Assembly: GCA_049523135.1 (NCBI GenBank)
Contig: JBEKNE010000001.1
Span: 455,009 to 519,008, forward strand
Source: Candidatus Microgenomates bacterium
GTDB lineage: Bacteria; Patescibacteriota; Microgenomatia; UBA8517
Direction: 5' to 3'
DNA: 64,000 nt
The notes under the pieces were generated by a model. The model searched no databases. It saw only the letters and a program-made list of their open reading frames with translations, and was not told the origin of the DNA. Within the stretch, counting starts at the first letter, position 1; each line of letters starts with the position of its first letter. Position numbers and translations under genes: made by a program. Shown here one piece after another: positions 4,033-56,937 of this stretch.

Positions 4033-4293
4033 ATGAATAGTTATTTTTATGGAAATCCTACAGCGTTAATGTTTCCTGGGATTATGGCAGGATGGTTAAG
4101 TGCTTTTTTGATTCCGGTTACACTTTGGAGTCTTTTTTGGATGGGTTGGGCTCTTTGGAGAGCGGCTAAAAATGGCAGTAAAATCTGGTTTATAGTTTTA
4201 TTGCTTGTCCATACAATGGGAATTCTAGACATTTTGTATATTTTTATATTTTCCCAAAAAAGTTGGACAAAATCTGGTAAGAAATCCAAGTAA
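4033..4293 (+). CDS. small integral membrane protein (hypothetical)
   Basis: Two hydrophobic helices. Strong SD (aaggaaggtggtga) before the ATG. A TTGACA-like -35 lies upstream. Confidence 0.4.
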   Translation: MNSYFYGNPTALMFPGIMAGWLSAFLIPVTLWSLFWMGWALWRAAKNGSKIWFIVLLLVHTMGILDILYIFIFSQKSWTKSGKKSK

Positions 4294-4488
4294 CTTCTTG
4301 ACAACAATATAAGGGCTGATAAAATCCTATTCATCGGTAGCAGTTGTGGTATCGAGATAATGAGACTAACGCTCGGTGGTTGCAATGCCCACATCCTCCG
4401 AAGGGTTGCTCGTGTCATGTGAGAGAAAGATGAGTCTCGATCTTTCTCTGTAATAATTGCACATTTATTTTTTATTGTGCGAGTGTAG

Positions 4489-4578
4489 CTCAGAGGTGAA
4501 GAGCGGGAGATATAACTACTCAAAAACTTTTGAGGAGGGTAATCTCTAAATCGGTGGGTTCGAATCCCCCCACTTGCG
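4489..4578 (+). ncRNA. tRNA-like gene with ~30-nt insertion in the anticodon arm (isotype not assignable)
   Basis: Acceptor GCGAGTG/CACTTGC (one G-U). D-arm GCTC-AGAGGTGAA-GAGC. T-arm GTGGG-TTCGAAT-CCCCC. A GGAGAT/ATCTCT helix encloses 32 nt that contain a perfect CTCAAAA/TTTTGAG hairpin and no canonical 7-nt anticodon loop. Confidence 0.45.
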
Positions 4579-4965
4579 ATTGGTAAGCGCTATGGAATAC
4601 TGCTGGAAGTGAAAGATCTTTTATGATCAGCTGGGTTGCGCGCGCTTACAAAAATCTCGGTACCCGATACCGAGTCCTTTAGACAGATATAGGTTAGATG
4701 TTTGCGTCTAAAGGCGGCGGCAAGAAGAGGTCAAGGAAGCGAATCGGGCGTGGAGGCCTCTTCTTACGTGTATGATGTTTTACATAAACTTGCCAAAATA
4801 TGCGGCAGAATAAGTGTAGAACACCTAAAGATTTTTGCGGGCAGGCTACTGTCACGAGATTTTTCTTGATGTCTTTTCGACATTTTGAGATTTTTTGTGA
4901 TAGTAATACCTGCCCGTGTTCGTTTTAATGGTATATAATTGCGTTGAGGTGCTTTCAATCAAAAA

Positions 4966-5478
4966 ATGTTAATACTTGGAATCGATCCCGGTACTGCTAC
5001 AACCGGTTTTGGATTGGTAAATTTTACCAAAAAAGGTAACGAAGTTATCGAGTGGGGACTTATTGAGACAGACAAAAAACTTCTTAAAGAAAAACGTCTT
5101 GACTTCATTTTTGAAGAAACATTGAAACTTATTAAAAAACATAATCCTGATGTGTTTGTTTTTGAAAAGGTTTTTTTCTCCAATAATGCCAAAACAGTAA
5201 TAGCGGTTGGACAGGCTCAAGGTGTAATGCTTTTAGCGGCAGGTAAAATGGGAGTACATATTGAAGAATATGCACCAGGAACTATTAAAAAGATGATTAC
5301 TGGAAATGGTCGTGCCAAGAAAAAGGAAGTTCAGGAGCATTTGAGAAAAATTTTAGGTTCCCGTGTAAAAAGCGAGGCGCATAAAAAAACTCATTTTGAC
5401 GATGCCGCCGATGCTTTGGCGATTGCACTTACTCACGCATTTAAATTAGGAGAAAAAGGGGGTGATAAAGTTGTTTAA
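4966..5478 (+). CDS. ruvC: Holliday junction resolvase RuvC
   Basis: MLILGIDPGTATTGFGLV...DALAIALTHAF gives the RuvC catalytic D/E layout. Confidence 0.9.
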   Translation: MLILGIDPGTATTGFGLVNFTKKGNEVIEWGLIETDKKLLKEKRLDFIFEETLKLIKKHNPDVFVFEKVFFSNNAKTVIAVGQAQGVMLLAAGKMGVHIEEYAPGTIKKMITGNGRAKKKEVQEHLRKILGSRVKSEAHKKTHFDDAADALAIALTHAFKLGEKGGDKVV

Positions 5479-15029: not shown

Positions 15030-15656
15030 CTAGTTTTTTCCGTATCTTCGGATGAGGCCGACAACTCTTCCCTGAATTTTTACATTTTTAACAAAAATCG
15101 GCTGCATTGCTGCATTTGCGGGCTGAAGACGGATTCGTGTGGCTTCTTTAAAAAATCTTTTAAGAGTGGCCATGCCGTTATCAAGAAGCGCCACAACAAC
15201 TTCCCCGTTATTTGCATTTTCTGTTTGTTCAACAATTACATTATCTCCGTCCATTATTCCGTCTTCGATCATACTTTCACCACGGACCTGGAGAATATAA
15301 GTTCTTTTACTGCCGCTGGCAAACGTCGCGGGAATATTCATTGAGGCATTTGGATCTGTGTAGGGTTCAATTGGTGCCCCTGCCGCAATGAAACCCAAAA
15401 TCGGAGCGTCAAAACCCTCTGGCTGTCCTAGATTAACGTCCGATTCGACCAGTTCTATTGACCTGACTTTGCCTGATTTTTTCTTAATAAGCCCTTTCGC
15501 TTCAAGAGATTGAAGGTGTTCATGAACAGTGGCCAAAGAGGATACTCCAATTGCGTCAGCTATTTGCTTAAGAGTCGGAGCTGTGCCGTTTGACTGGATA
15601 AATTGTTTAATAAATCCAAGTATTTGTTTTTGCCTTTTGTAGACGATCAGAGCCAT
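15030..15656 (-). CDS. lexA: LexA repressor
   Basis: N-terminal wHTH. Cleavage and catalytic region AAGAP...RGESMIEDGIMDGD...ATLKRF (S24 peptidase Ser/Lys). Confidence 0.9.
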   Translation of the reverse strand: MALIVYKRQKQILGFIKQFIQSNGTAPTLKQIADAIGVSSLATVHEHLQSLEAKGLIKKKSGKVRSIELVESDVNLGQPEGFDAPILGFIAAGAPIEPYTDPNASMNIPATFASGSKRTYILQVRGESMIEDGIMDGDNVIVEQTENANNGEVVVALLDNGMATLKRFFKEATRIRLQPANAAMQPIFVKNVKIQGRVVGLIRRYGKN

Positions 15657-15729: not shown

Positions 15730-16050
15730 TTAGGAGTGGACTTTATCAGTGGTAAGCAATTTATTAACCTGCCTTGCGTATTCTGTAAGAGCTTCCTGAT
15801 CATGAACGGTTGTTGTGCCTATGTATCCACCGTCTTCTTCCGGATCGGTATAATAAGAGAAGACTACACCTTCTACTTTGCGTGCAACGTTTTCACGGAC
15901 TAATGCCTCTTTTCTGGTCATACGGCAAGTAAAGATATTCCCCTCCTCATCTCTTTCTTGTTTTGTAAGAAACGCCCTACCTACCGGTCTTTCTCTATAC
16001 ATAGGGGACATTATATAACAAAATGCAAATAATGATAAAATTGTCAACAA
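15730..16050 (-). CDS. hypothetical protein (divergent from uvrB, next to lexA)
   Basis: ORF only. Start is probably an internal Met (~16011). Confidence 0.3.
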   Translation of the reverse strand: MLTILSLFAFCYIMSPMYRERPVGRAFLTKQERDEEGNIFTCRMTRKEALVRENVARKVEGVVFSYYTDPEEDGGYIGTTTVHDQEALTEYARQVNKLLTTDKVHS

Positions 16051-19000
16051 TGGGGCAATTTAAGCTACACTCAAACTTTAAACCAATTCCCGATCAGGCT
16101 CGTGCAATTGAAGAATTGTCTGAGGGAATTACGAGTAGTAAAAAATACCAAACATTATTGGGGGTGACAGGGAGTGGTAAAAGTATAGATTACAATGATT
16201 ATGTTTTAATAAAAACTATTGGCAATGGATTTAAATTCAATTTGGTTGAAATTGGCGACTTCATAGATAAAATATTTGAAAACAATGTACATCTAAGTAC
16301 CCATGATTCCGAAATGGTTTATACAAATTCATTAAAAGATAACTATGAAACCTATACAATAAATCCAATAAGTGGAGAGTTTGAATATAAAAAAATTACT
16401 GCGCTTATTAGACATCAAGCGCCTAAACGACTCTATAAAATAACTACTTCTTGCGGTAGGCAAGTTACTATTACTAAAGATCATAATCTCTGGGTATTAA
16501 GAGATGGCCACCTTACTTTAATTAGAACCCAAGATGTACATAGAGGCGATTTTTTACCGATTCCTAGAAATTTAGGATTTATAGCAAATGGTATGGATGG
16601 TATATGGGTAAATGATTATTTGATTAAAAGAAAAATTTATTTTAGCTTAGATGAGCTAACAAAAAGGATATTTATACCTAAAGATAGATTAGTCAGTATT
16701 TTGGGAAATAAATATAATGGTGCAATTACAAGGCATGAAAGGGTTAATATATCTTTTCTGAAAGATCTTATTGGATATGAAAATTTGCATTTAATTAAAG
16801 ATTTGGTAATAAGTCCAAGAATCGGAAATAAAACAACCTTGTATATACCTTTAACTAACAGTTACTTAAATCTTTTAGGAATCTATCTGGCTGAAGGATG
16901 TGTTGCAAATAATTATCTTTTATTAAGTATCCACGAGTCTGAAGCAAAAAGAATACTATTTAGAACATTTAAGAATTTAAATTTACGTTATCACGAGAGA
17001 AAAAATCGTAAAGGTGATTTTCAAATAGATAATTTAATTCTTGCAAAAATATTCAAAGTTTTATGTGGAAATGGTTCAGTAAATAAGCATCTTCCTCCTT
17101 GGTTTTTTAACTTAAGTAAAGATCAAATGGTAAGAATCATTTCTGCCTATTTTGATGGAGATGGATATGTGAGTCGGAATGAAGTAAGTACAACTACTAA
17201 AAGCAAGAAATTAGCATCAGAGCTTATGTATACTTTAAGTATTTTTGATATTGTTGCCAGGTGTAGAAAGGTATTCAAAAGGGCCACAAACAGCAATATG
17301 AAGAAACAATTATATTATGAAGTGGTTATATCGGGTCAAGGGAATATAGATAAATTTAGAGAACATATAGGATTTAATTTAAAGAGAAAAAAGCATTTGC
17401 TTTTAGGTACTTTTAGGGTCAATGAAAATACAAATGTCGATTTGATACCAATAAAGCCATCCGAGTTTATAAATCTTCGCAAAAACGCAAATATTTCTCA
17501 GGAAAAATTAGCTAATCTATCTAGTTGTTCGAGAAGCTTTGTGTCAATGATAGAAAGTGGAAAAAGATTACCTTCGCAAGAAGTCTGCAAATCTATATTA
17601 GATGTTTTTAAAAATATTTTAGAAAATGAAACCGACTTTAAAATATTAGATAAATATTATTCACTTTTAAAAGCCTTTTGGACACCCATAAAGAACATAA
17701 GTTATGTAAGACCATCTACTCCTTTCATTTACGATTTTTCAGTTGATAAAAATGAAACTTTCTTAGCAGGTTTTGGTGGAATTTTTGTGCATAATACTTT
17801 TACAATGGCTGGAGTTATTGAAAAAGTCCAGCGTCCGACATTAATTATTTCCCACAATAAAACTCTGGCCGCCCAGCTTTATCAGGAGCTTAGGGATTTT
17901 TTCCCAAATAATGCGGTTTCTTACTTTGTTTCCTATTATGATTACTACCAGCCGGAGGCTTACATTCCTTCAACCGATACATATATCGAAAAAGACGCGG
18001 ATATTAATGAAACCATTGATAAACTCCGTCTTGCGGCAACCACAAATCTCTTAACGCGATGCGATACAATTGTCGTTGCTTCGGTTTCCTGCATATATAA
18101 CATAGGTTCTCCCCGAGAATACGGACATTTTGTCTTGGAGTTTACGGAAGGAATGAAGATAAATCGTGAACAAATAATTGATCGAATAGTGGACTTGCAA
18201 TATGAGCGAAGCGATTTCGGATTTAATAGGGGTACTTTCAGGGTTCGGGGTAATGCTATTGATATTTATCCTGCCTATCTTGATCAGGGAGTCCATGTAG
18301 AATTCGGTGAGGATAAAATTGAAAAAATTGAGTTAATAAATCCCGTTACGGGAAATAGCGTTCCGAAAAAAGAAGGTTTTGACCCGACGAACTTCATACT
18401 TTATCCCGCCAAACATTTTATGACTAATCCGACAACCTACGATGACGCTTTCGATGCAATCAAAAAGGATTTGGAAAGCCGTGTTTCTCAACTTAAAAAA
18501 GAAGGAAAAGATTTGGAAGCTCATAGGATTGCCCAAAAAGTTACTTACGACATGGAAATGATCAAAGAAGTGGGGTATGTCAAAGGAATTGAAAATTATT
18601 CCAGATATTTTGACGGTCGTTCCCCCGGGGACGCACCCTTTTCGCTTCTGGATTATTTTAACGAGCCCTACAAAGACAAATGGCTTCTCCTTGTCGATGA
18701 ATCTCACATGACTTTTCCGCAAATAAGGGGAATGTTTAATGGCGACTTGTCCAGAAAACAAACGTTAATCGATTACGGTTTCAGACTTCCTTCGGCACTT
18801 GATAACAGGCCTTTGAGATTTGAGGAATTTATGAGAAGAGTTCCTAATTTTATTGCGTCTTCCGCAACACCCAATGAATGGGAAATAAGCATGAGCGGAG
18901 GCAAAGTTGCGGAGCTTTTGGTCAGGCCCACGGGGATTCCCGATCCGGAAGTTGAAATTAGACCTATTAAAAATCAGGTAGCCGATGTTATAGAGGAGAT

Positions 19001-19688
19001 CAAAAAAACCACGGCCAAACACCAGAGGACTCTGGTCACAACCATGACCAAACGTACTGCCGAAGACCTTTCCGCCTATTTGAATGAGCAGGGTCTGAAA
19101 GTTCAATATTTACACTCAGATATAGCCACGCTCGATAGAACCGATATTCTGGATGATCTCAGGAACGGCAAATACGATGTTTTGGTTGGAATTAATCTTC
19201 TTAGGGAAGGCTTGGACCTTCCCGAGGTTAGCCTCGTAGCCATACTAGATGCCGATAAAGAGGGTTTCCTCCGAAGTGACGTAACCCTTGTCCAGACGAT
19301 GGGTAGGGCCGCCAGACACGTTGAGGGGCGTGTAATTATGTATGCCGATAAGATAACCGGCTCGATGGAGAGAGCTCTTTCCGAGGTCAAGAGACGTCGT
19401 GCCTATCAGTTAGAATATAACAAAAATCACAACATTACGCCCGTTAGCATAAGTAAGCCTATCCGCGAGAAACTTATTGAGCATGAAACGGACAAACGTG
19501 CCCCTTGGGTTTTTGGCAGTAAAGAGCCTGTTTACGAAAGCCTTCCGCATCTTGAAATTGATTCAATGACTCCGATGGAGAAAAAGAGGTTGGTTAAAAA
19601 TTTGACCACCGAAATGCGCCTTGCCGCACAGGATCTCAATTTCGAGCTTGCGGCGGAGATAAGGGACAAAATTAAGGAGATTATTTAA
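16023..19688 (+). CDS. uvrB: excinuclease ABC subunit B, interrupted by an in-frame intein (precursor 1221 aa; mature ~683 aa)
   Basis: GVTGSGK | S...intein...VHN | TFTMAGVIE reconstitutes the UvrB Walker A GVTGSGKTFTMA. Downstream helicase motifs, the beta-hairpin and a C-terminal UVR domain follow. The true start may be Met10 (16050). Confidence 0.93.
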   Translation: MQIMIKLSTMGQFKLHSNFKPIPDQARAIEELSEGITSSKKYQTLLGVTGSGKSIDYNDYVLIKTIGNGFKFNLVEIGDFIDKIFENNVHLSTHDSEMVYTNSLKDNYETYTINPISGEFEYKKITALIRHQAPKRLYKITTSCGRQVTITKDHNLWVLRDGHLTLIRTQDVHRGDFLPIPRNLGFIANGMDGIWVNDYLIKRKIYFSLDELTKRIFIPKDRLVSILGNKYNGAITRHERVNISFLKDLIGYENLHLIKDLVISPRIGNKTTLYIPLTNSYLNLLGIYLAEGCVANNYLLLSIHESEAKRILFRTFKNLNLRYHERKNRKGDFQIDNLILAKIFKVLCGNGSVNKHLPPWFFNLSKDQMVRIISAYFDGDGYVSRNEVSTTTKSKKLASELMYTLSIFDIVARCRKVFKRATNSNMKKQLYYEVVISGQGNIDKFREHIGFNLKRKKHLLLGTFRVNENTNVDLIPIKPSEFINLRKNANISQEKLANLSSCSRSFVSMIESGKRLPSQEVCKSILDVFKNILENETDFKILDKYYSLLKAFWTPIKNISYVRPSTPFIYDFSVDKNETFLAGFGGIFVHNTFTMAGVIEKVQRPTLIISHNKTLAAQLYQELRDFFPNNAVSYFVSYYDYYQPEAYIPSTDTYIEKDADINETIDKLRLAATTNLLTRCDTIVVASVSCIYNIGSPREYGHFVLEFTEGMKINREQIIDRIVDLQYERSDFGFNRGTFRVRGNAIDIYPAYLDQGVHVEFGEDKIEKIELINPVTGNSVPKKEGFDPTNFILYPAKHFMTNPTTYDDAFDAIKKDLESRVSQLKKEGKDLEAHRIAQKVTYDMEMIKEVGYVKGIENYSRYFDGRSPGDAPFSLLDYFNEPYKDKWLLLVDESHMTFPQIRGMFNGDLSRKQTLIDYGFRLPSALDNRPLRFEEFMRRVPNFIASSATPNEWEISMSGGKVAELLVRPTGIPDPEVEIRPIKNQVADVIEEIKKTTAKHQRTLVTTMTKRTAEDLSAYLNEQGLKVQYLHSDIATLDRTDILDDLRNGKYDVLVGINLLREGLDLPEVSLVAILDADKEGFLRSDVTLVQTMGRAARHVEGRVIMYADKITGSMERALSEVKRRRAYQLEYNKNHNITPVSISKPIREKLIEHETDKRAPWVFGSKEPVYESLPHLEIDSMTPMEKKRLVKNLTTEMRLAAQDLNFELAAEIRDKIKEII
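16182..17795 (+). mobile_element. intein (538 aa) with LAGLIDADG homing endonuclease domain and XRE-type HTH
   Basis: Begins with Ser after GSGK; block B TITKDHNLW; LAGLIDADG-like LLGIYLAEGCV and ISAYFDGDGYV; HTH ISQEKLANLSSCSRSFVSMIESGKRLPS; ends FIYDFSV...GGIFVHN followed by +1 Thr. Confidence 0.8.
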
Positions 19689-41822: not shown

Positions 41823-42038
41823 AATGAGCTATAATGCGGTAGTTAGGACCTAACCCTATTCAAATAGGTATGGTTAAAGAAAACCAGTAACGAGCAGAAA
41901 GCTCTCGTTGGAGCATCGTTACTGGTCACGGTTCCGAAAGGAATTGTGGGTGCCGCAAGGCATCGCCGACGGGAGCTTTTTATTTTGTATATATAAAAGT
42001 CTTCCTTCGGCCACCTTGTAACGAAAGAGGGTGAGGGT

Positions 42039-56851: not shown

Positions 56852-56856
56852 TCAAG

Positions 56857-56937
56857 TGCACCCGGAGAGACTCGAACTCTCACGCCTTTCGGCATAGCTC
56901 CTTGGGCTACCGCGTATACCAATTCCGCCACGGGTGC
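56857..56937 (-). tRNA. class II tRNA, Leu-like D-arm, anticodon unresolved (loop CCAAGGA)
   Basis: Manual fold: acceptor GCACCCG/CGGGTGC; D-arm GCGGAATTGGTATACGC; long variable arm GCCGAAAGGCGT; T-arm GAGAGTTCGAGTCTCTC. The anticodon loop lacks U33 in the best register. Confidence 0.5.

What the first reader, a model, noticed from the sequence alone, without database searches (positions are those of the whole stretch)
4489..4578. tRNA-like gene whose anticodon arm is replaced by an extended rod carrying a 30-nt insertion
The acceptor, D-arm and a textbook T-arm (GTGGG-TTCGAAT-CCCCC) are present. The anticodon stem (GGAGAT/ATCTCT) encloses 32 nt that form a perfect 7-bp hairpin (CTCAAAA..TTTTGAG) flanked by 7-nt internal loops, and there is no 7-nt anticodon loop in any register I tried. 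Small introns of this kind are not a bacterial feature. Possibilities are a tRNA with a novel short intervening sequence, a tRNA-derived regulatory or structural RNA, or an integration-scarred tRNA.
Basis: seen in the sequence. Interest (0 to 1): 0.65.

Follow-up and report, generated by a model that had tools for sequence, protein, structure and literature searches.

The report
Non-decoding tRNA-shaped RNA with rod arm
A small-genome (CPR, Woesebacteria) bacterium carries a gene that folds like a threonine tRNA but has a 32-base hairpin where the anticodon loop should be. It belongs to a fast-changing, dispensable cassette of tRNA-shaped genes whose bodies are kept by selection although most cannot read codons.

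Summary
The gene spans 4479-4578, not 4489-4578. The T stem has a bulged U. The inner hairpin is effectively 6 bp plus a tetraloop. Rfam's tRNA model matches it (39.9 bits, threshold 29) with a 31-nt insert in the anticodon loop; default ARAGORN does not call it.

The host is a Woesebacteria (CPR) chromosome. The gene lies in a cassette bounded by a promoter and a terminator, between a DUF5652 gene and ruvC. In relatives this cassette holds 1-4 tRNA-shaped genes or is absent altogether.

Across 39 distinct cassette genes, 96.7% of stem positions pair, but the "anticodon loops" are 4 to 70 nt long and only about one in five is canonical. True homologues of the window's rod (L043, L117) kept every top-half stem through compensatory changes, while neighbouring synonymous sites are near saturation.

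No single excision restores a loop with U33. No bulge-helix-bulge motif is present. The window copy also has G3:U70 and G73.

My verdict: a tRNA-Thr-derived, non-decoding tRNA mimic. It is neither an intron-bearing tRNA nor a plain decaying pseudogene. Its function is unknown. The closest precedent is the oversized tRNAs with "enigmatic introns" reported in Lak megaphages.

The parts
4298..4325 (+). Sigma-70-type promoter of the cassette: TTGACA, 16-nt spacer, TG-n-TAAAAT (extended -10). It begins 5 nt after the DUF5652 stop codon.
   Evidence: Matches 11 of 12 consensus positions plus the TG. The same TTGACAA...TGnTAAAAT promoter is found at the equivalent place in L043, L042, L044, L039, L054, L033, L036, L004 and L006. 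That it is active is inferred.
4332..4478 (+). Leader of about 147 nt between the promoter and the tRNA-like gene. It ends in the hairpin AGAGAAAGAU..AUCUUUCUCU (4421-4450) followed by a U-rich tract.
   Evidence: Fold; cmscan shows the hairpin. A homologous module (GAGAAAGAUG..CUUUCUC followed by AAUUAUUGC..UUUAUUUUUA) is present in L127 but absent from its near-identical strain L125. The 4451-4496 stretch aligns to spacers in L043 and L054.
4479..4578 (+). The tRNA-shaped gene (100 nt). Segments: acceptor 4479-4485 / 4571-4577 (with G3:U70 at 4481:4575); U8 A9 4486-4487; D arm 4488-4504; anticodon-stem base 4506-4511 / 4542-4547; variable region 4548-4552; T arm 4553-4570 (bulged U4555); discriminator G4578. 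No CCA is encoded.
   Evidence: RF00005 at 39.9 bits; own covariance model R1 at 43.8 bits; fold; identical in L001-L003.
4512..4541 (+). The 'rod' insert that replaces the anticodon loop: 5' internal-loop strand AUAACUA (4512-4518), palindromic hairpin CUCAAAA-AC-UUUUGAG (4519-4534), 3' internal-loop strand GAGGGUA (4535-4541). Its 3' edge, GGU-A-A, is the remnant of a Thr(GGU) anticodon loop.
   Evidence: It is homologous to the rods of L043:743-849 (shared CUACUCA... and an identical GAGGAGGGUAAUCUCU) and L117:1087-1216 (GGGAGAU..CUCAUAAGA..GGGUAA). It is not repeated elsewhere in the window.
4532..4547 (+). A 16-nt block, GAGGAGGGUAAUCUCU, identical in L043 even though the acceptor and T arms have diverged.
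   Evidence: Either it is under constraint or it marks a recombination tract; this is unresolved. The only viral contig with this 16-mer (L131) has no tRNA-like gene there, so that match is chance.
4579..4836 (+). Structured 3' part of the cassette transcript. It contains a multi-hairpin module (about 4650-4770) and a conserved 'X element' (4778-4835).
   Evidence: The fold of 4579-4965 has z=-6.0, and none of 100 shuffles folds as well. The 4778-4854 stretch is 78% identical to L033, L052 and L040. The multi-hairpin module is present in L125 and absent in L127. No Rfam family matches.
4837..4929 (+). Long terminator-like hairpin GCGGGCAGG...CCUGCCCG followed by a U-rich tail. It closes the cassette. 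The ruvC -10 box (TATAAT) and the ruvC coding sequence (4966-5478) follow.
   Evidence: GGGCAGG at 4839 and CCTGCCC at 4909. The same stem sequence occurs in nearly all relatives, including L010, which has no cassette, and in a degenerate form in L012. Terminator function is inferred.

Best explanation
WHAT IT IS
A tRNA-Thr-derived gene for a tRNA-shaped RNA that does not decode. The acceptor stem, D arm, base of the anticodon stem and T arm are intact. The 7-nt anticodon loop has been replaced by a 32-nt hairpin extension built from local palindromic sequence, so there is no anticodon to present.

It is one member of an accessory cassette: promoter, leader, 1-4 tRNA-shaped genes, structured spacers. 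The cassette sits between the DUF5652 stop codon and a conserved terminator upstream of ruvC in one clade of Candidatus Woesebacteria.

HOW IT MOST LIKELY WORKS
- Shown: the cloverleaf is present and is kept by selection; a consensus promoter and a terminator-like hairpin are present.
- Inferred: it is transcribed from the sigma-70 promoter at 4298-4325 as part of a transcript of about 600 nt. Because the acceptor/T minihelix and the D/T elbow are intact, RNase P and RNase Z excise it and CCA is added, as for the genome's other tRNAs that lack an encoded CCA.
- Inferred: the mature RNA of about 103 nt is an L-shaped tRNA look-alike with an over-long anticodon limb. It can engage proteins that recognise the tRNA body but cannot pair with codons.

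FUNCTION (my split)
- About 35%: a trans-acting tRNA mimic, that is, a decoy or sponge for a tRNA-binding or tRNA-targeting factor.
- About 20%: a cis-acting processing and stability module ('tRNA punctuation' or a natural tRNA scaffold) for the cassette transcript.
- About 10%: a charged but non-ribosomal aminoacyl carrier. The window copy has the AlaRS determinant G3:U70.

The rod is not an intron.
For: 1. tRNA body. RF00005 matches at 39.9 bits (threshold 29) with the insert confined to the anticodon loop; the fold is a cloverleaf.

2. Thr ancestry. The acceptor GCGAGUG/CACUUGC, with G1-C72 and C2-G71, and the D arm match the tRNA-Thr genes that occupy the same slot in relatives (L006 UGU, L007 UGU, L005 CGU, L130 CGU). 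The rod ends in GGU-A-A.

3. It belongs to a family. The slot holds 40 tRNA-shaped genes (39 distinct) in 19 loci.
- 96.7% of 814 stem cells are paired, against 61.5% in shuffles and 44-51% when partners are slid.
- 291 cells carry changes on both sides of a pair.
- Loop lengths are 4, 6, 7, 8, 9, 11, 14, 19, 21, 32, 39, 44, 53 and 70 nt.
- All 10 ordinary class-I tRNAs of the window have canonical 7-nt loops.

4. Selection acted after the rod was acquired. Compared with its rod homologues, the window shows these changed top-half pairs:
- versus L043: 3 compensated, 2 one-sided, 0 disrupted;
- versus L117#3: 3 compensated, 1 one-sided, 0 disrupted.
Body identity is 0.59-0.74 by two alignments, while ruvC four-fold synonymous sites are only 0.37-0.43 identical. 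Across all families the totals are 62 compensated, 42 one-sided and 12 disrupted.

5. Not decoders.
- L039 and L042 carry a perfect tRNA with anticodon UUA, although UAA is the main stop codon (23 of 32 long ORFs in the window) and ends ruvC itself.
- The window copy has G3:U70 and G73. In a decoding Thr tRNA these should cause Ala mischarging (Hou & Schimmel 1988; McClain & Foss 1988; my own knowledge).

6. It is a transcription unit. The promoter is near-consensus and conserved, and a terminator-like hairpin closes the unit.

7. It is dispensable and mosaic.
- The cassette is absent from close relatives: the DUF5652-ruvC gap is 14-35 nt in L120, L121 and L129.
- In L125 versus L127, which encode the same RuvC protein, the gene is 67% identical while its 3' flank is 95% and the 2.2 kb downstream is 100% identical.
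- The same gene occurs with a 7-nt loop in L039 and with a 39-nt rod in L042.
Against: - There is no expression, processing or aminoacylation data. Every step after 'the gene folds like a tRNA and is conserved' is inferred.
- I saw only 64 kb of a genome of at least 641 kb, so I cannot show that a normal tRNA-Thr(GGU) exists elsewhere.
- About one slot gene in five still has a canonical loop (Thr CGU/UGU, Glu UUC, and a GAA loop on a non-Phe-type body), so the cassette may be or have been an ordinary tRNA operon in some lineages.
- Recombination among paralogues could inflate apparent conservation (the window gene is itself mosaic).
- Pairwise counts are not independent, and the alignment was fitted to the structure.
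- No partner protein was found among the 30 window proteins I annotated.
- Nothing here separates decoy, processing module and carrier.
Confidence: 0.6

Rival explanations
1. It is a precursor of a functional tRNA-Thr(GGU). The roughly 25-30-nt rod is a new kind of short bacterial tRNA intron, removed by an unknown endonuclease and ligase to give a working anticodon loop (for example UGGGUAA).
For: - The rod lies exactly in the anticodon loop and leaves GGU-A-A next to the 3' stem strand.
- L117:758-875 keeps a perfect UUGGUAA at the 5' edge, followed by 46 extra nt, and L054:1229-1314 keeps CUGAAAA at the 3' edge.
- The same gene occurs with and without a rod in close relatives, and rods vary in length as introns do.
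- The body is under selection.
- Oversized phage tRNAs have been interpreted as intron-bearing (bioRxiv 10.1101/356790).
Against: - For the window, L043, L044 and L042, no single excision gives U33. The best result is UGGGUAA, with G33.
- None of the 8 rods has a bulge-helix-bulge motif. ARAGORN's intron solution is forced: the cut lies inside the anticodon, position 37 is U, and the acceptor has 8 bp.
- No ribozyme or intron family matches.
- Cassette-mates have 4-11-nt loops that splicing cannot repair, and anticodons such as UUA that conflict with stop-codon usage.
- G3:U70 with G73 in the window copy argues against Thr decoding fidelity.
- Two Thr(GGU)-type rod genes sit in one operon in L117, which would be redundant.
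- In 46 oversized viral tRNA-likes, canonical loop edges occur only at chance level: 4 at each edge, about 7% expected.
Confidence: 0.08
2. It is a functionless relic: a redundant tRNA-Thr copy in a recombination hot spot. Its anticodon loop was destroyed by a palindromic (template-switch) insertion, and its cloverleaf survives only through youth or gene conversion.
For: - The cassette is dispensable and patchy, present in 21 of 65 loci searched.
- It is mosaic.
- The rods are made of local inverted or direct duplications: CTCAAAA/TTTTGAG here, CCTCCTAGGAGG in L044, UUACCC/GGGUAA and GGAUUGG/CCAAUCC in L117.
- L036 has a visibly degenerate copy at 27 bits.
- G3:U70 could be a neutral hit.
Against: - The rod predates the split of the window, L043 and L117. 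Their ruvC synonymous sites are only 37-43% identical, yet 13 changed top-half pairs are all still paired and none is disrupted.
- Body identity is 0.59-0.74, well above the synonymous-site level.
- The slot families are unlike the housekeeping tRNAs (slot Phe-like versus the window's tRNA-Phe), so conversion from housekeeping copies is unlikely. A conversion tract covering both acceptor strands would also erase the rod.
- A near-consensus promoter is retained.
- Small CPR genomes generally keep few pseudogenes (my own knowledge).
Confidence: 0.2
3. It is a tmRNA-like or otherwise alanine-accepting RNA. The G3:U70 pair makes it an AlaRS substrate, and the rod replaces the anticodon arm as helix P2 does in tmRNA.
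For: - G4481:T4575 form G3:U70. It is the only G-U at that pair among 39 slot genes.
- The anticodon arm is replaced by a long helix, as in the tRNA-like domain of tmRNA.
- G3:U70 alone transfers Ala identity in E. coli (my own knowledge).
Against: - ARAGORN's tmRNA mode and Rfam find no tmRNA here.
- There is no tag reading frame and no pseudoknot; the molecule is only 100 nt.
- G3:U70 is absent from all homologues (L043 and L117 have C3-G70), so it is not a family feature.
- The discriminator is G rather than A, and the 2:71 pair is C-G.
Confidence: 0.07

Closest known systems
Oversized 'pseudo tRNAs' with 'enigmatic introns' in Lak megaphages and other huge phages (Devoto et al., bioRxiv 10.1101/356790; read)
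   Same: These are tRNA-like genes too long for bacterial tRNA finders, with an insert in the anticodon region, including Thr and Phe types. The insert is present or absent between close relatives, and its nature is unresolved. My own scan found at least 120 viral contigs with a comparable body carrying 20-50 extra nt; 46 of 69 unique cases have a rod on the anticodon stem.
   Different: This one is on a bacterial (CPR) chromosome among housekeeping genes, not in a phage. It sits in a cassette whose other members have short aberrant loops. Here I could show that excision does not restore a canonical loop. I did not compare its sequence with the Lak inserts.
Canonical bacterial tRNA-Thr (Rfam RF00005)
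   Same: It has a 7-bp acceptor stem with G1-C72 and C2-G71, a D arm with GG, a T loop UUCGAAU, a 5-nt variable region, and remnants of G35-U36-A37-A38. It occupies the same genomic slot as Thr(UGU/CGU) genes in relatives.
   Different: It has no 7-nt anticodon loop and no U33. It has G3:U70 and G73, where relatives have U73. It is 100 nt long, and default ARAGORN does not call it.
Archaeal and eukaryal pre-tRNAs with protein-spliced (bulge-helix-bulge) introns
   Same: A short insert in the anticodon region; in some relatives the insert pairs with the anticodon-loop sequence; the inserts vary in length.
   Different: There is no bulge-helix-bulge motif, the insert is not at position 37/38, excision does not give a canonical loop, and no bacterial splicing endonuclease is known.
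Pseudo-tRNA 'tRNA-Other' of Bacillus cereus (PMC3399842)
   Same: A chromosomal tRNA-like gene that does not function in translation yet has physiological effects. It is the precedent for a non-decoding tRNA mimic in bacteria.
   Different: It is a different lineage and architecture, with no rod. It is a single gene beside a genomic island, not a multi-gene cassette. No sequence relationship was tested.
tRNA-like domain of tmRNA
   Same: Acceptor and T arms with G3:U70; the anticodon arm is replaced by a long helix.
   Different: No mRNA-like domain or pseudoknots; the ends are those of a plain tRNA; tmRNA finders do not detect it.
tRNA-like processing signals and engineered 'tRNA scaffolds' (mascRNA/MALAT1; Ponchon & Dardel 2007; my own knowledge)
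   Same: The architecture is the same: an intact tRNA top half, recognised by RNase P and RNase Z, carrying an arbitrary hairpin in place of the anticodon loop. This is known to give stable, correctly processed RNA.
   Different: Those cases are eukaryotic or synthetic. No cargo function is known for this rod.
tRNA arrays and cryptic tRNA operons (PMC8421152, PMC4758250, PMC5966550)
   Same: Accessory clusters of extra tRNA genes, patchily distributed and thought to spread horizontally.
   Different: In the Anabaena operon, 23 of 26 tRNAs were detected and aminoacylated. Arrays hold 20 or more genes. Here there are 1-4 genes, and most lack a usable anticodon loop.

Membership tests
Decoding bacterial tRNA (RF00005 sense) | Cloverleaf with a 7-bp acceptor stem, D arm and T arm, and a score above the Rfam gathering threshold | tested here: met
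   39.9 bits against a threshold of 29, with all 71 model positions aligned; cloverleaf minimum-free-energy fold.
Decoding bacterial tRNA (RF00005 sense) | 7-nt anticodon loop with U33 and a purine at position 37 | tested here: not met
   There are 32 nt between the 5-bp stem strands. Default ARAGORN makes no call. None of the 8 single-excision registers has U33.
Decoding bacterial tRNA (RF00005 sense) | Aminoacylated and used on the ribosome | not testable with these tools
   This needs acid-gel or charged-tRNA sequencing. Indirect evidence is against it: G3:U70 with G73 on a Thr-type body, and cassette-mates whose anticodon is UUA although UAA is the main stop codon.
Pre-tRNA with a bulge-helix-bulge intron | Bulge-helix-bulge motif (3-nt bulge, 4-bp helix, 3-nt bulge) at the exon-intron junctions | tested here: not met
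   An explicit search of the window rod and 7 related rods found none.
Pre-tRNA with a bulge-helix-bulge intron | Excision restores a canonical anticodon loop that fits the tRNA's identity | tested here: not met
   The best result is UGGGUAA, with G33. ARAGORN -i gives a forced Pro(AGG) with the cut at 34/35 and U37.
Pre-tRNA with a bulge-helix-bulge intron | Splicing endonuclease and ligase encoded in the genome | tested here: inconclusive
   None among the 30 window proteins scanned against Pfam, but only 64 kb of a genome of at least 641 kb was visible.
Group I intron in a tRNA anticodon loop | Catalytic core of about 200 nt or more that matches the Rfam intron model | tested here: not met
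   The insert is 32 nt. There is no Rfam hit other than tRNA at E<=5 in 4250-5000.
tmRNA | Detected by tmRNA finders; has a tag reading frame and pseudoknots | tested here: not met
   ARAGORN (tRNA and tmRNA) and Rfam report none. ARAGORN -m on the locus finds 0 genes.
tmRNA | G3:U70 alanine identity pair | tested here: met
   G4481:T4575. It is unique among the 39 slot genes, so it is not a family trait.
Oversized phage tRNAs with 'enigmatic introns' (Lak type) | tRNA-like gene with an insert in the anticodon region that bacterial tRNA finders miss | tested here: met
   The paper's description was read.
Oversized phage tRNAs with 'enigmatic introns' (Lak type) | Encoded in a (huge) phage genome | tested here: not met
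   The neighbours are DnaE, L19, RuvC, glycolysis genes and UvrABC, on a contig of at least 641 kb. There is no match in the phage database.
Oversized phage tRNAs with 'enigmatic introns' (Lak type) | Insert present or absent between closely related genomes | tested here: met
   The middle gene has a 7-nt loop in L039 and a 39-nt rod in L042, with homologous ends. L006 has a 72-nt gene in the slot.
Functional structured RNA (general) | Base pairs kept by compensatory substitution, and conservation above the neutral rate | tested here: met
   96.7% of cells are paired, with 291 cells changed on both sides, exceeding every one of 500 shuffles on cells paired, both-side-changed cells and covariation score. 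Window versus L043/L117: 6 compensated, 3 one-sided, 0 disrupted. Body identity is 0.59-0.74 against 0.37-0.43 at synonymous sites. Caveats: the genes are paralogues, the alignment was fitted to the structure, and recombination occurs.

The most novel reading that the evidence does not exclude
Woesebacteria, and by the look of the viral scan many phages, maintain a distinct class of tRNA-shaped RNAs. Selection keeps the whole L-shaped body while the anticodon loop is deliberately abolished or zipped into a rod. These RNAs are carried on a small, promoter-driven, recombining accessory cassette whose alleles are swapped faster than their flanks.

That pattern is what one would expect of a player in a genetic conflict. 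One possibility is a decoy that soaks up or blocks tRNA-targeting nucleases or toxins. Another is a masked 'pro-tRNA' that escapes them.

If this is right, the 'enigmatic introns' of huge-phage tRNAs would not be introns at all, but the signature of the same class.
Probability: 0.25. Interest if true: 0.75.

Novelty: new variant of a known kind. Interest (0 to 1): 0.55.

Why it matters
Oversized tRNA genes with unexplained inserts have been noted in huge phages and provisionally called introns. That would be remarkable for bacteria and phages, which have no known protein-based tRNA splicing.

This locus is a chromosomal, comparatively tractable example with many natural variants. The comparison argues against splicing: the rod is not a removable intron, and the molecule is a selected tRNA mimic that has given up decoding.

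If confirmed, annotation pipelines should stop forcing such genes into 'tRNA with intron' or 'pseudo' bins. The open question would become directly testable: what does a cell, or a phage, gain from an anticodon-less tRNA body? The answer could be a decoy against tRNA-targeting defence or toxin systems, a processing scaffold, or an amino-acid carrier.

The locus also shows how quickly tRNA paralogues can be remodelled by local palindromic insertions in streamlined CPR genomes.

Tried and rejected
- **Phage origin.** blastn of the locus and of 3 kb around it against 50,697 phage records gave no match. The gene context is chromosomal and housekeeping.
- **Intron and pseudogene modes of ARAGORN.** These gave only a forced Pro(AGG) solution, which I rejected.
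- **Bulge-helix-bulge and single-excision searches.** Negative.
- **Other RNA families in the rod, the intergenic region or relatives' operons** (ribozymes, T-box, tmRNA, group I intron). Only chance-level miRNA/sRNA hits, all far below threshold.
- **K-turn, loop-E or T-box sequence in the 7x7 internal loop or the leader.** I checked this by eye against the consensus from memory and saw no match. It was not formally tested.
- **Repeat or MITE nature of the rod or the intergenic modules.** Only self-hits in the window.
- **G3:U70 as a family feature.** Rejected; it is unique to the window copy.
- **Orthologue with the same insert among 28 GTDB species representatives.** None by blastn. Homologues appeared only after structure-based parsing of metagenome loci.
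- **Link between the conserved 16-mer and a virus.** The single viral hit (L131) is a chance match with no tRNA-like gene.
- **Partner proteins** (Fem/MprF-type transferases, EndA, RtcB) among 30 window proteins. None found.
- **Literature on CPR tRNA introns or rod-type tRNA-likes.** Nothing found. The Anabaena cryptic tRNA operon is a different situation: 23 of its 26 tRNAs were detected and charged.
- **Canonical loop edges in oversized viral tRNA-likes.** Present only at chance level.
Full report
**1. The observation**

The sequence at 4479-4578 (+) reads GCGAGUG UA GCUC AGAGGUGAA GAGC G GGAGAU AUAACUA CUCAAAA AC UUUUGAG GAGGGUA AUCUCU AAAUC GG(U)GGG UUCGAAU CCCCC CACUUGC G.

- Rfam's tRNA model matches it end to end at 39.9 bits (gathering score 29), with a 31-nt insert in the anticodon loop.
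- ARAGORN ordinary tRNAs in the window but not this one.
- RNAfold gives a cloverleaf whose anticodon arm is a rod: 6 bp, an internal loop, 6 bp, then an AACU tetraloop. The energy is -32.9 kcal/mol, z=-2.5.

Three details are off.

- The gene starts at 4479, not 4489.
- The T stem has a bulged U, so it is not 'textbook'.
- The '7-bp' hairpin can form only 6 bp.

The sequence is identical in three independent assemblies.

**2. Where it is**

The neighbours are DnaE, ribosomal protein L19, a DUF5652 protein, then the element, then RuvC, a delta-subunit-like protein, PGM, PGI and PPDK. Further along are enolase, iPGM, LexA, UvrA, UvrB, UvrC and FtsK.

The source contig is 640,746 bp. The closest named relatives are Candidatus Woesebacteria (Microgenomates, CPR). 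Nothing matches in the phage database. This is a bacterial chromosome.

**3. The transcription unit**

- A near-consensus extended -10 promoter (TTGACA-16-TG-n-TAAAAT) starts 5 nt after the DUF5652 stop codon.
- The same promoter is conserved in relatives. In several it lies about 30-40 nt upstream of the first tRNA-like gene (L042, L044, L039) and about 24 nt in L043.
- The 387 nt downstream of the element are strongly structured, z=-6.0.
- They end in a long hairpin, GCGGGCAGG...CCUGCCCG, followed by a U-run. This hairpin is conserved in relatives, including L010, which has nothing between DUF5652 and the hairpin, and in a degenerate form in L012.
- The ruvC -10 box follows.

So the element sits in a self-contained cassette inserted between the DUF5652 stop codon and that terminator.

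**4. What relatives have in the slot**

I anchored on RuvC and fetched 28 species-representative loci, 80 metagenome loci and about 25 more through exact-protein look-ups.

I built a covariance model from normal-length slot genes. It finds tRNA-shaped genes in the slot in 21 of 65 loci searched and none in the rest. In L120, L121 and L129, whose RuvC is about 87% identical, DUF5652 and ruvC are only 14-35 nt apart. The cassette is therefore dispensable.

Where the cassette is present, it holds 1-4 genes. They fall into several body families: Thr-like, Cys-like, a U1-A72/G73 family, a Lys-like gene with anticodon UUA, and others. All of them pass Rfam's tRNA threshold.

Their anticodon regions are highly irregular. 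Loop lengths are 4, 6, 7, 8, 9, 11, 14, 19, 21, 32, 39, 44, 53 and 70 nt, and only about one in five fits Y-U-NNN-R-N. By contrast, all ten ordinary class-I tRNAs of the window have canonical 7-nt loops.

**5. True homologues of the window's rod**

| Gene | Length | What it shares with the window element |
|---|---|---|
| L043:743-849 | 107 nt | CUACUCA at the 5' side of the rod, and an identical 16-nt block GAGGAGGGUAAUCUCU at the 3' side |
| L117:1087-1216 | 130 nt | The same start GGGAGAU, then ..CUCAUAAGA.., and the ending GGGUAA |
| L044:940-1025 | 86 nt | Ends ..GGAGGGUGA |

L042:1041-1143 (103 nt) is the positional homologue: 64% identity over 143 nt, flanks included. L117:758-875 (118 nt) has a Thr-type body whose loop begins with a perfect UUGGUAA followed by 46 extra nt.

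The bodies resemble the tRNA-Thr genes that occupy the slot in L005, L006, L007 and L130. I therefore read the element as a tRNA-Thr(GGU) derivative.

The rods are built from local inverted or direct duplications:

- CTCAAAA/TTTTGAG in the window;
- the perfect palindrome CCTCCTAGGAGG in L044;
- UUACCC/GGGUAA and GGAUUGG/CCAAUCC in L117.

This points to template-switch or palindrome-extension mutations as their origin. That step is inference.

**6. Intron test**

- For the window element, none of the eight ways of removing one contiguous segment to leave seven nucleotides gives U33. The best result is UGGGUAA.
- A search for helix / 3-nt bulge / 4-bp helix / 3-nt bulge / helix found nothing in any of eight rods.
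- ARAGORN's intron mode returns a forced tRNA-Pro(AGG), cut inside the anticodon, with U37 and an 8-bp acceptor stem.
- No ribozyme or intron family matches.
- Splicing could not repair the 4-11-nt loops of the cassette-mates.

I put the intron reading at about 8%.

**7. Pseudogene test**

Between the window, L043 and L117, four-fold synonymous sites of the adjacent ruvC are only 37-43% identical, which is close to saturation. The tRNA-like bodies, with the rod excluded, are 59-74% identical.

Changed pairs in the acceptor, D and T stems:

| Comparison | Compensated | One-sided | Disrupted |
|---|---|---|---|
| Window vs L043 | 3 | 2 | 0 |
| Window vs L117#3 | 3 | 1 | 0 |
| All families, within-family pairs | 62 | 42 | 12 (all Cys-like) |

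On the model-based alignment of 39 distinct slot genes:

- 96.7% of 814 cells pair, against 61.5% in shuffles and 44-51% with slid partners;
- 291 cells have changes on both sides.

The base of the anticodon stem is also kept (94%). Only the loop is free.

Caveats: the genes are paralogues, the alignment is fitted to the structure, pairwise counts overlap, and recombination is frequent. Even so, the rod was already present when these three lineages split, and the body has been maintained since. A plain decaying pseudogene is unlikely (about 20%).

**8. Evidence that these genes do not decode**

- L039 and L042 carry a flawless cloverleaf with anticodon UUA. Yet UAA ends 23 of 32 long ORFs in the window and ends ruvC itself just downstream.
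- The window copy has G3:U70, the major AlaRS determinant (my own knowledge), and G73 on a Thr-type body. That would be selected against in a decoder.
- The window has its own normal tRNA-Phe, quite unlike the slot's GAA-bearing family. The slot genes are therefore extra lineages, not copies kept fresh by conversion from housekeeping genes.

**9. Mosaicism**

- The window gene's 5' flank and 5' end match one paralogue of L043 and L054, while its rod and 3' part match another.
- L125 and L127 encode the same RuvC protein.
  - They are 100% identical over 2.2 kb downstream and 89% identical (by global alignment) across the DUF5652 gene.
  - Inside the cassette, whole modules come and go; two of these modules are also in the window, at about 4400-4478 and about 4650-4770.
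  - The tRNA-like gene is only 67% identical, against 95% for its 3' flank.
  - Every changed stem pair is still paired.
- L039 and L042 have the same middle gene, with ends 82-89% identical, but one has a 7-nt loop and the other a 39-nt rod.

The gene is the most variable part of a recombining cassette.

**10. Wider context**

- 94 of the hits have valid acceptor and T stems.
- Of 69 unique cases, 46 carry the extra nucleotides as a rod on the anticodon stem.
- Canonical loop edges occur only at chance level: 4 at each edge, about 7% expected.

Devoto et al. described oversized 'pseudo tRNAs' with 'enigmatic introns' in Lak megaphages and suggested they are common in large phages. That is the closest precedent. 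The only viral contig with the window's 16-mer is a chance match. I found no paper describing this in CPR bacteria.

**11. Mechanism**

Shown:

- a conserved promoter and a terminator-like hairpin;
- an intact and selected tRNA body;
- no anticodon loop;
- a dispensable, mosaic cassette.

Inferred:

- transcription of a precursor of about 600 nt;
- excision by RNase P and RNase Z, then CCA addition (most tRNAs here lack an encoded CCA);
- a mature L-shaped RNA with an over-long anticodon limb that cannot decode.

Function is open. I favour a trans-acting tRNA mimic or decoy (about 35%). Next come a cis-acting processing and stability module, in the manner of tRNA punctuation or a tRNA scaffold (about 20%), and a charged non-ribosomal carrier (about 10%). 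No partner gene was seen nearby.

**12. Verdict**

It is a tRNA-Thr-derived, non-decoding, structurally constrained tRNA mimic in an accessory cassette. It is a new, chromosomal, CPR variant of the poorly understood 'oversized tRNA' phenomenon known from huge phages, and the evidence here argues that the insert is not an intron. Interest is moderate to high (0.55). The function is unknown and there are no expression data. The locus offers many natural variants and makes the question 'intron or anticodon-less mimic?' directly testable.

Noticed in passing
window 41847-41964 (+): A LOOT RNA (Rfam RF03000) matches at 71.5 bits against a threshold of 46.4. It is an orphan structured RNA of unknown function, here in a Woesebacteria genome.
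   Followed up: no
window 16023-19688 (+): UvrB is interrupted by an intein that carries a LAGLIDADG homing-endonuclease domain and an HTH domain (Pfam Intein_splicing, LAGLIDADG_3, HTH_3).
   Followed up: no
window 4837-4929 (+); also L004-L008, L010, L012, L033, L036, L039-L046, L117: The terminator-like hairpin upstream of ruvC keeps its stem sequence (CGGGCAGG / ACUGUCA ... CCUGCCCG) across species, even where there is no cassette. That is more conservation than a plain terminator needs. LexA is encoded in the window (15030-15656), so an SOS or regulatory site for ruvC is conceivable.
   Followed up: partly
window 4778-4835 (+); L033:1312-1393, L052, L040, L006, L008: A conserved 'X element' (..CUUGCCAAAAUAUGCGGCAGAAUAAGUGU..) lies between the last tRNA-like gene and the terminator, 78% identical to relatives. 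Other loci (L039, L041, L042, L044) have a different conserved 'Y element' (GGGUGYCUGAAGUUCCACC..GAGGCGCUUAAGGCACC) in the same place. These may be small RNAs released from the tRNA-like transcript.
   Followed up: partly
window about 4400-4478 and about 4650-4770; L125 vs L127: Two hairpin-rich modules of the cassette are present or absent between strains that are otherwise 100% identical over 2.2 kb downstream. This indicates modular indels inside the cassette.
   Followed up: partly
L039:612-684 and L042:1231-1303; L046:1122-1195: A perfectly formed tRNA with loop CUUUAAA (anticodon UUA, which would read the UAA stop codon) occurs in two related genomes that use UAA as a stop codon. The two copies differ by G-U-type changes in the anticodon stem. 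Another slot gene is called 'SeC(tca)' but has a 9-nt loop.
   Followed up: partly
window 56856-56937 (-): The gene ARAGORN calls tRNA-Leu(AAG) has the anticodon loop CCAAGGA, that is, C33 instead of U33, and A34. This is unusual for a bacterial housekeeping tRNA.
   Followed up: no
L024:2168-2230: A partial duplicate of the 5' half of tRNA-Glu lies just upstream of the intact tRNA-Glu(UUC) next to ruvC in a Shapirobacteria genome. This is the kind of scar that integrative elements leave.
   Followed up: no
L036:1232-1507 (similar sequence in L038): A small GIY-YIG nuclease ORF is inserted between the cassette and ruvC. It is reminiscent of the homing endonucleases found in phage tRNA clusters.
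   Followed up: no
viral loci L135, L148, L150, L154, L156, L160, L177, L184, L191, L195, L200, L227, L237 and others: A recurrent class of oversized viral tRNA-like genes has a hairpin (..GUCAUGUYUGUGACU..) plus a conserved ACAGCAAU motif inserted between the D arm and an apparently normal anticodon stem-loop. Its architecture differs from the rod type.
   Followed up: no
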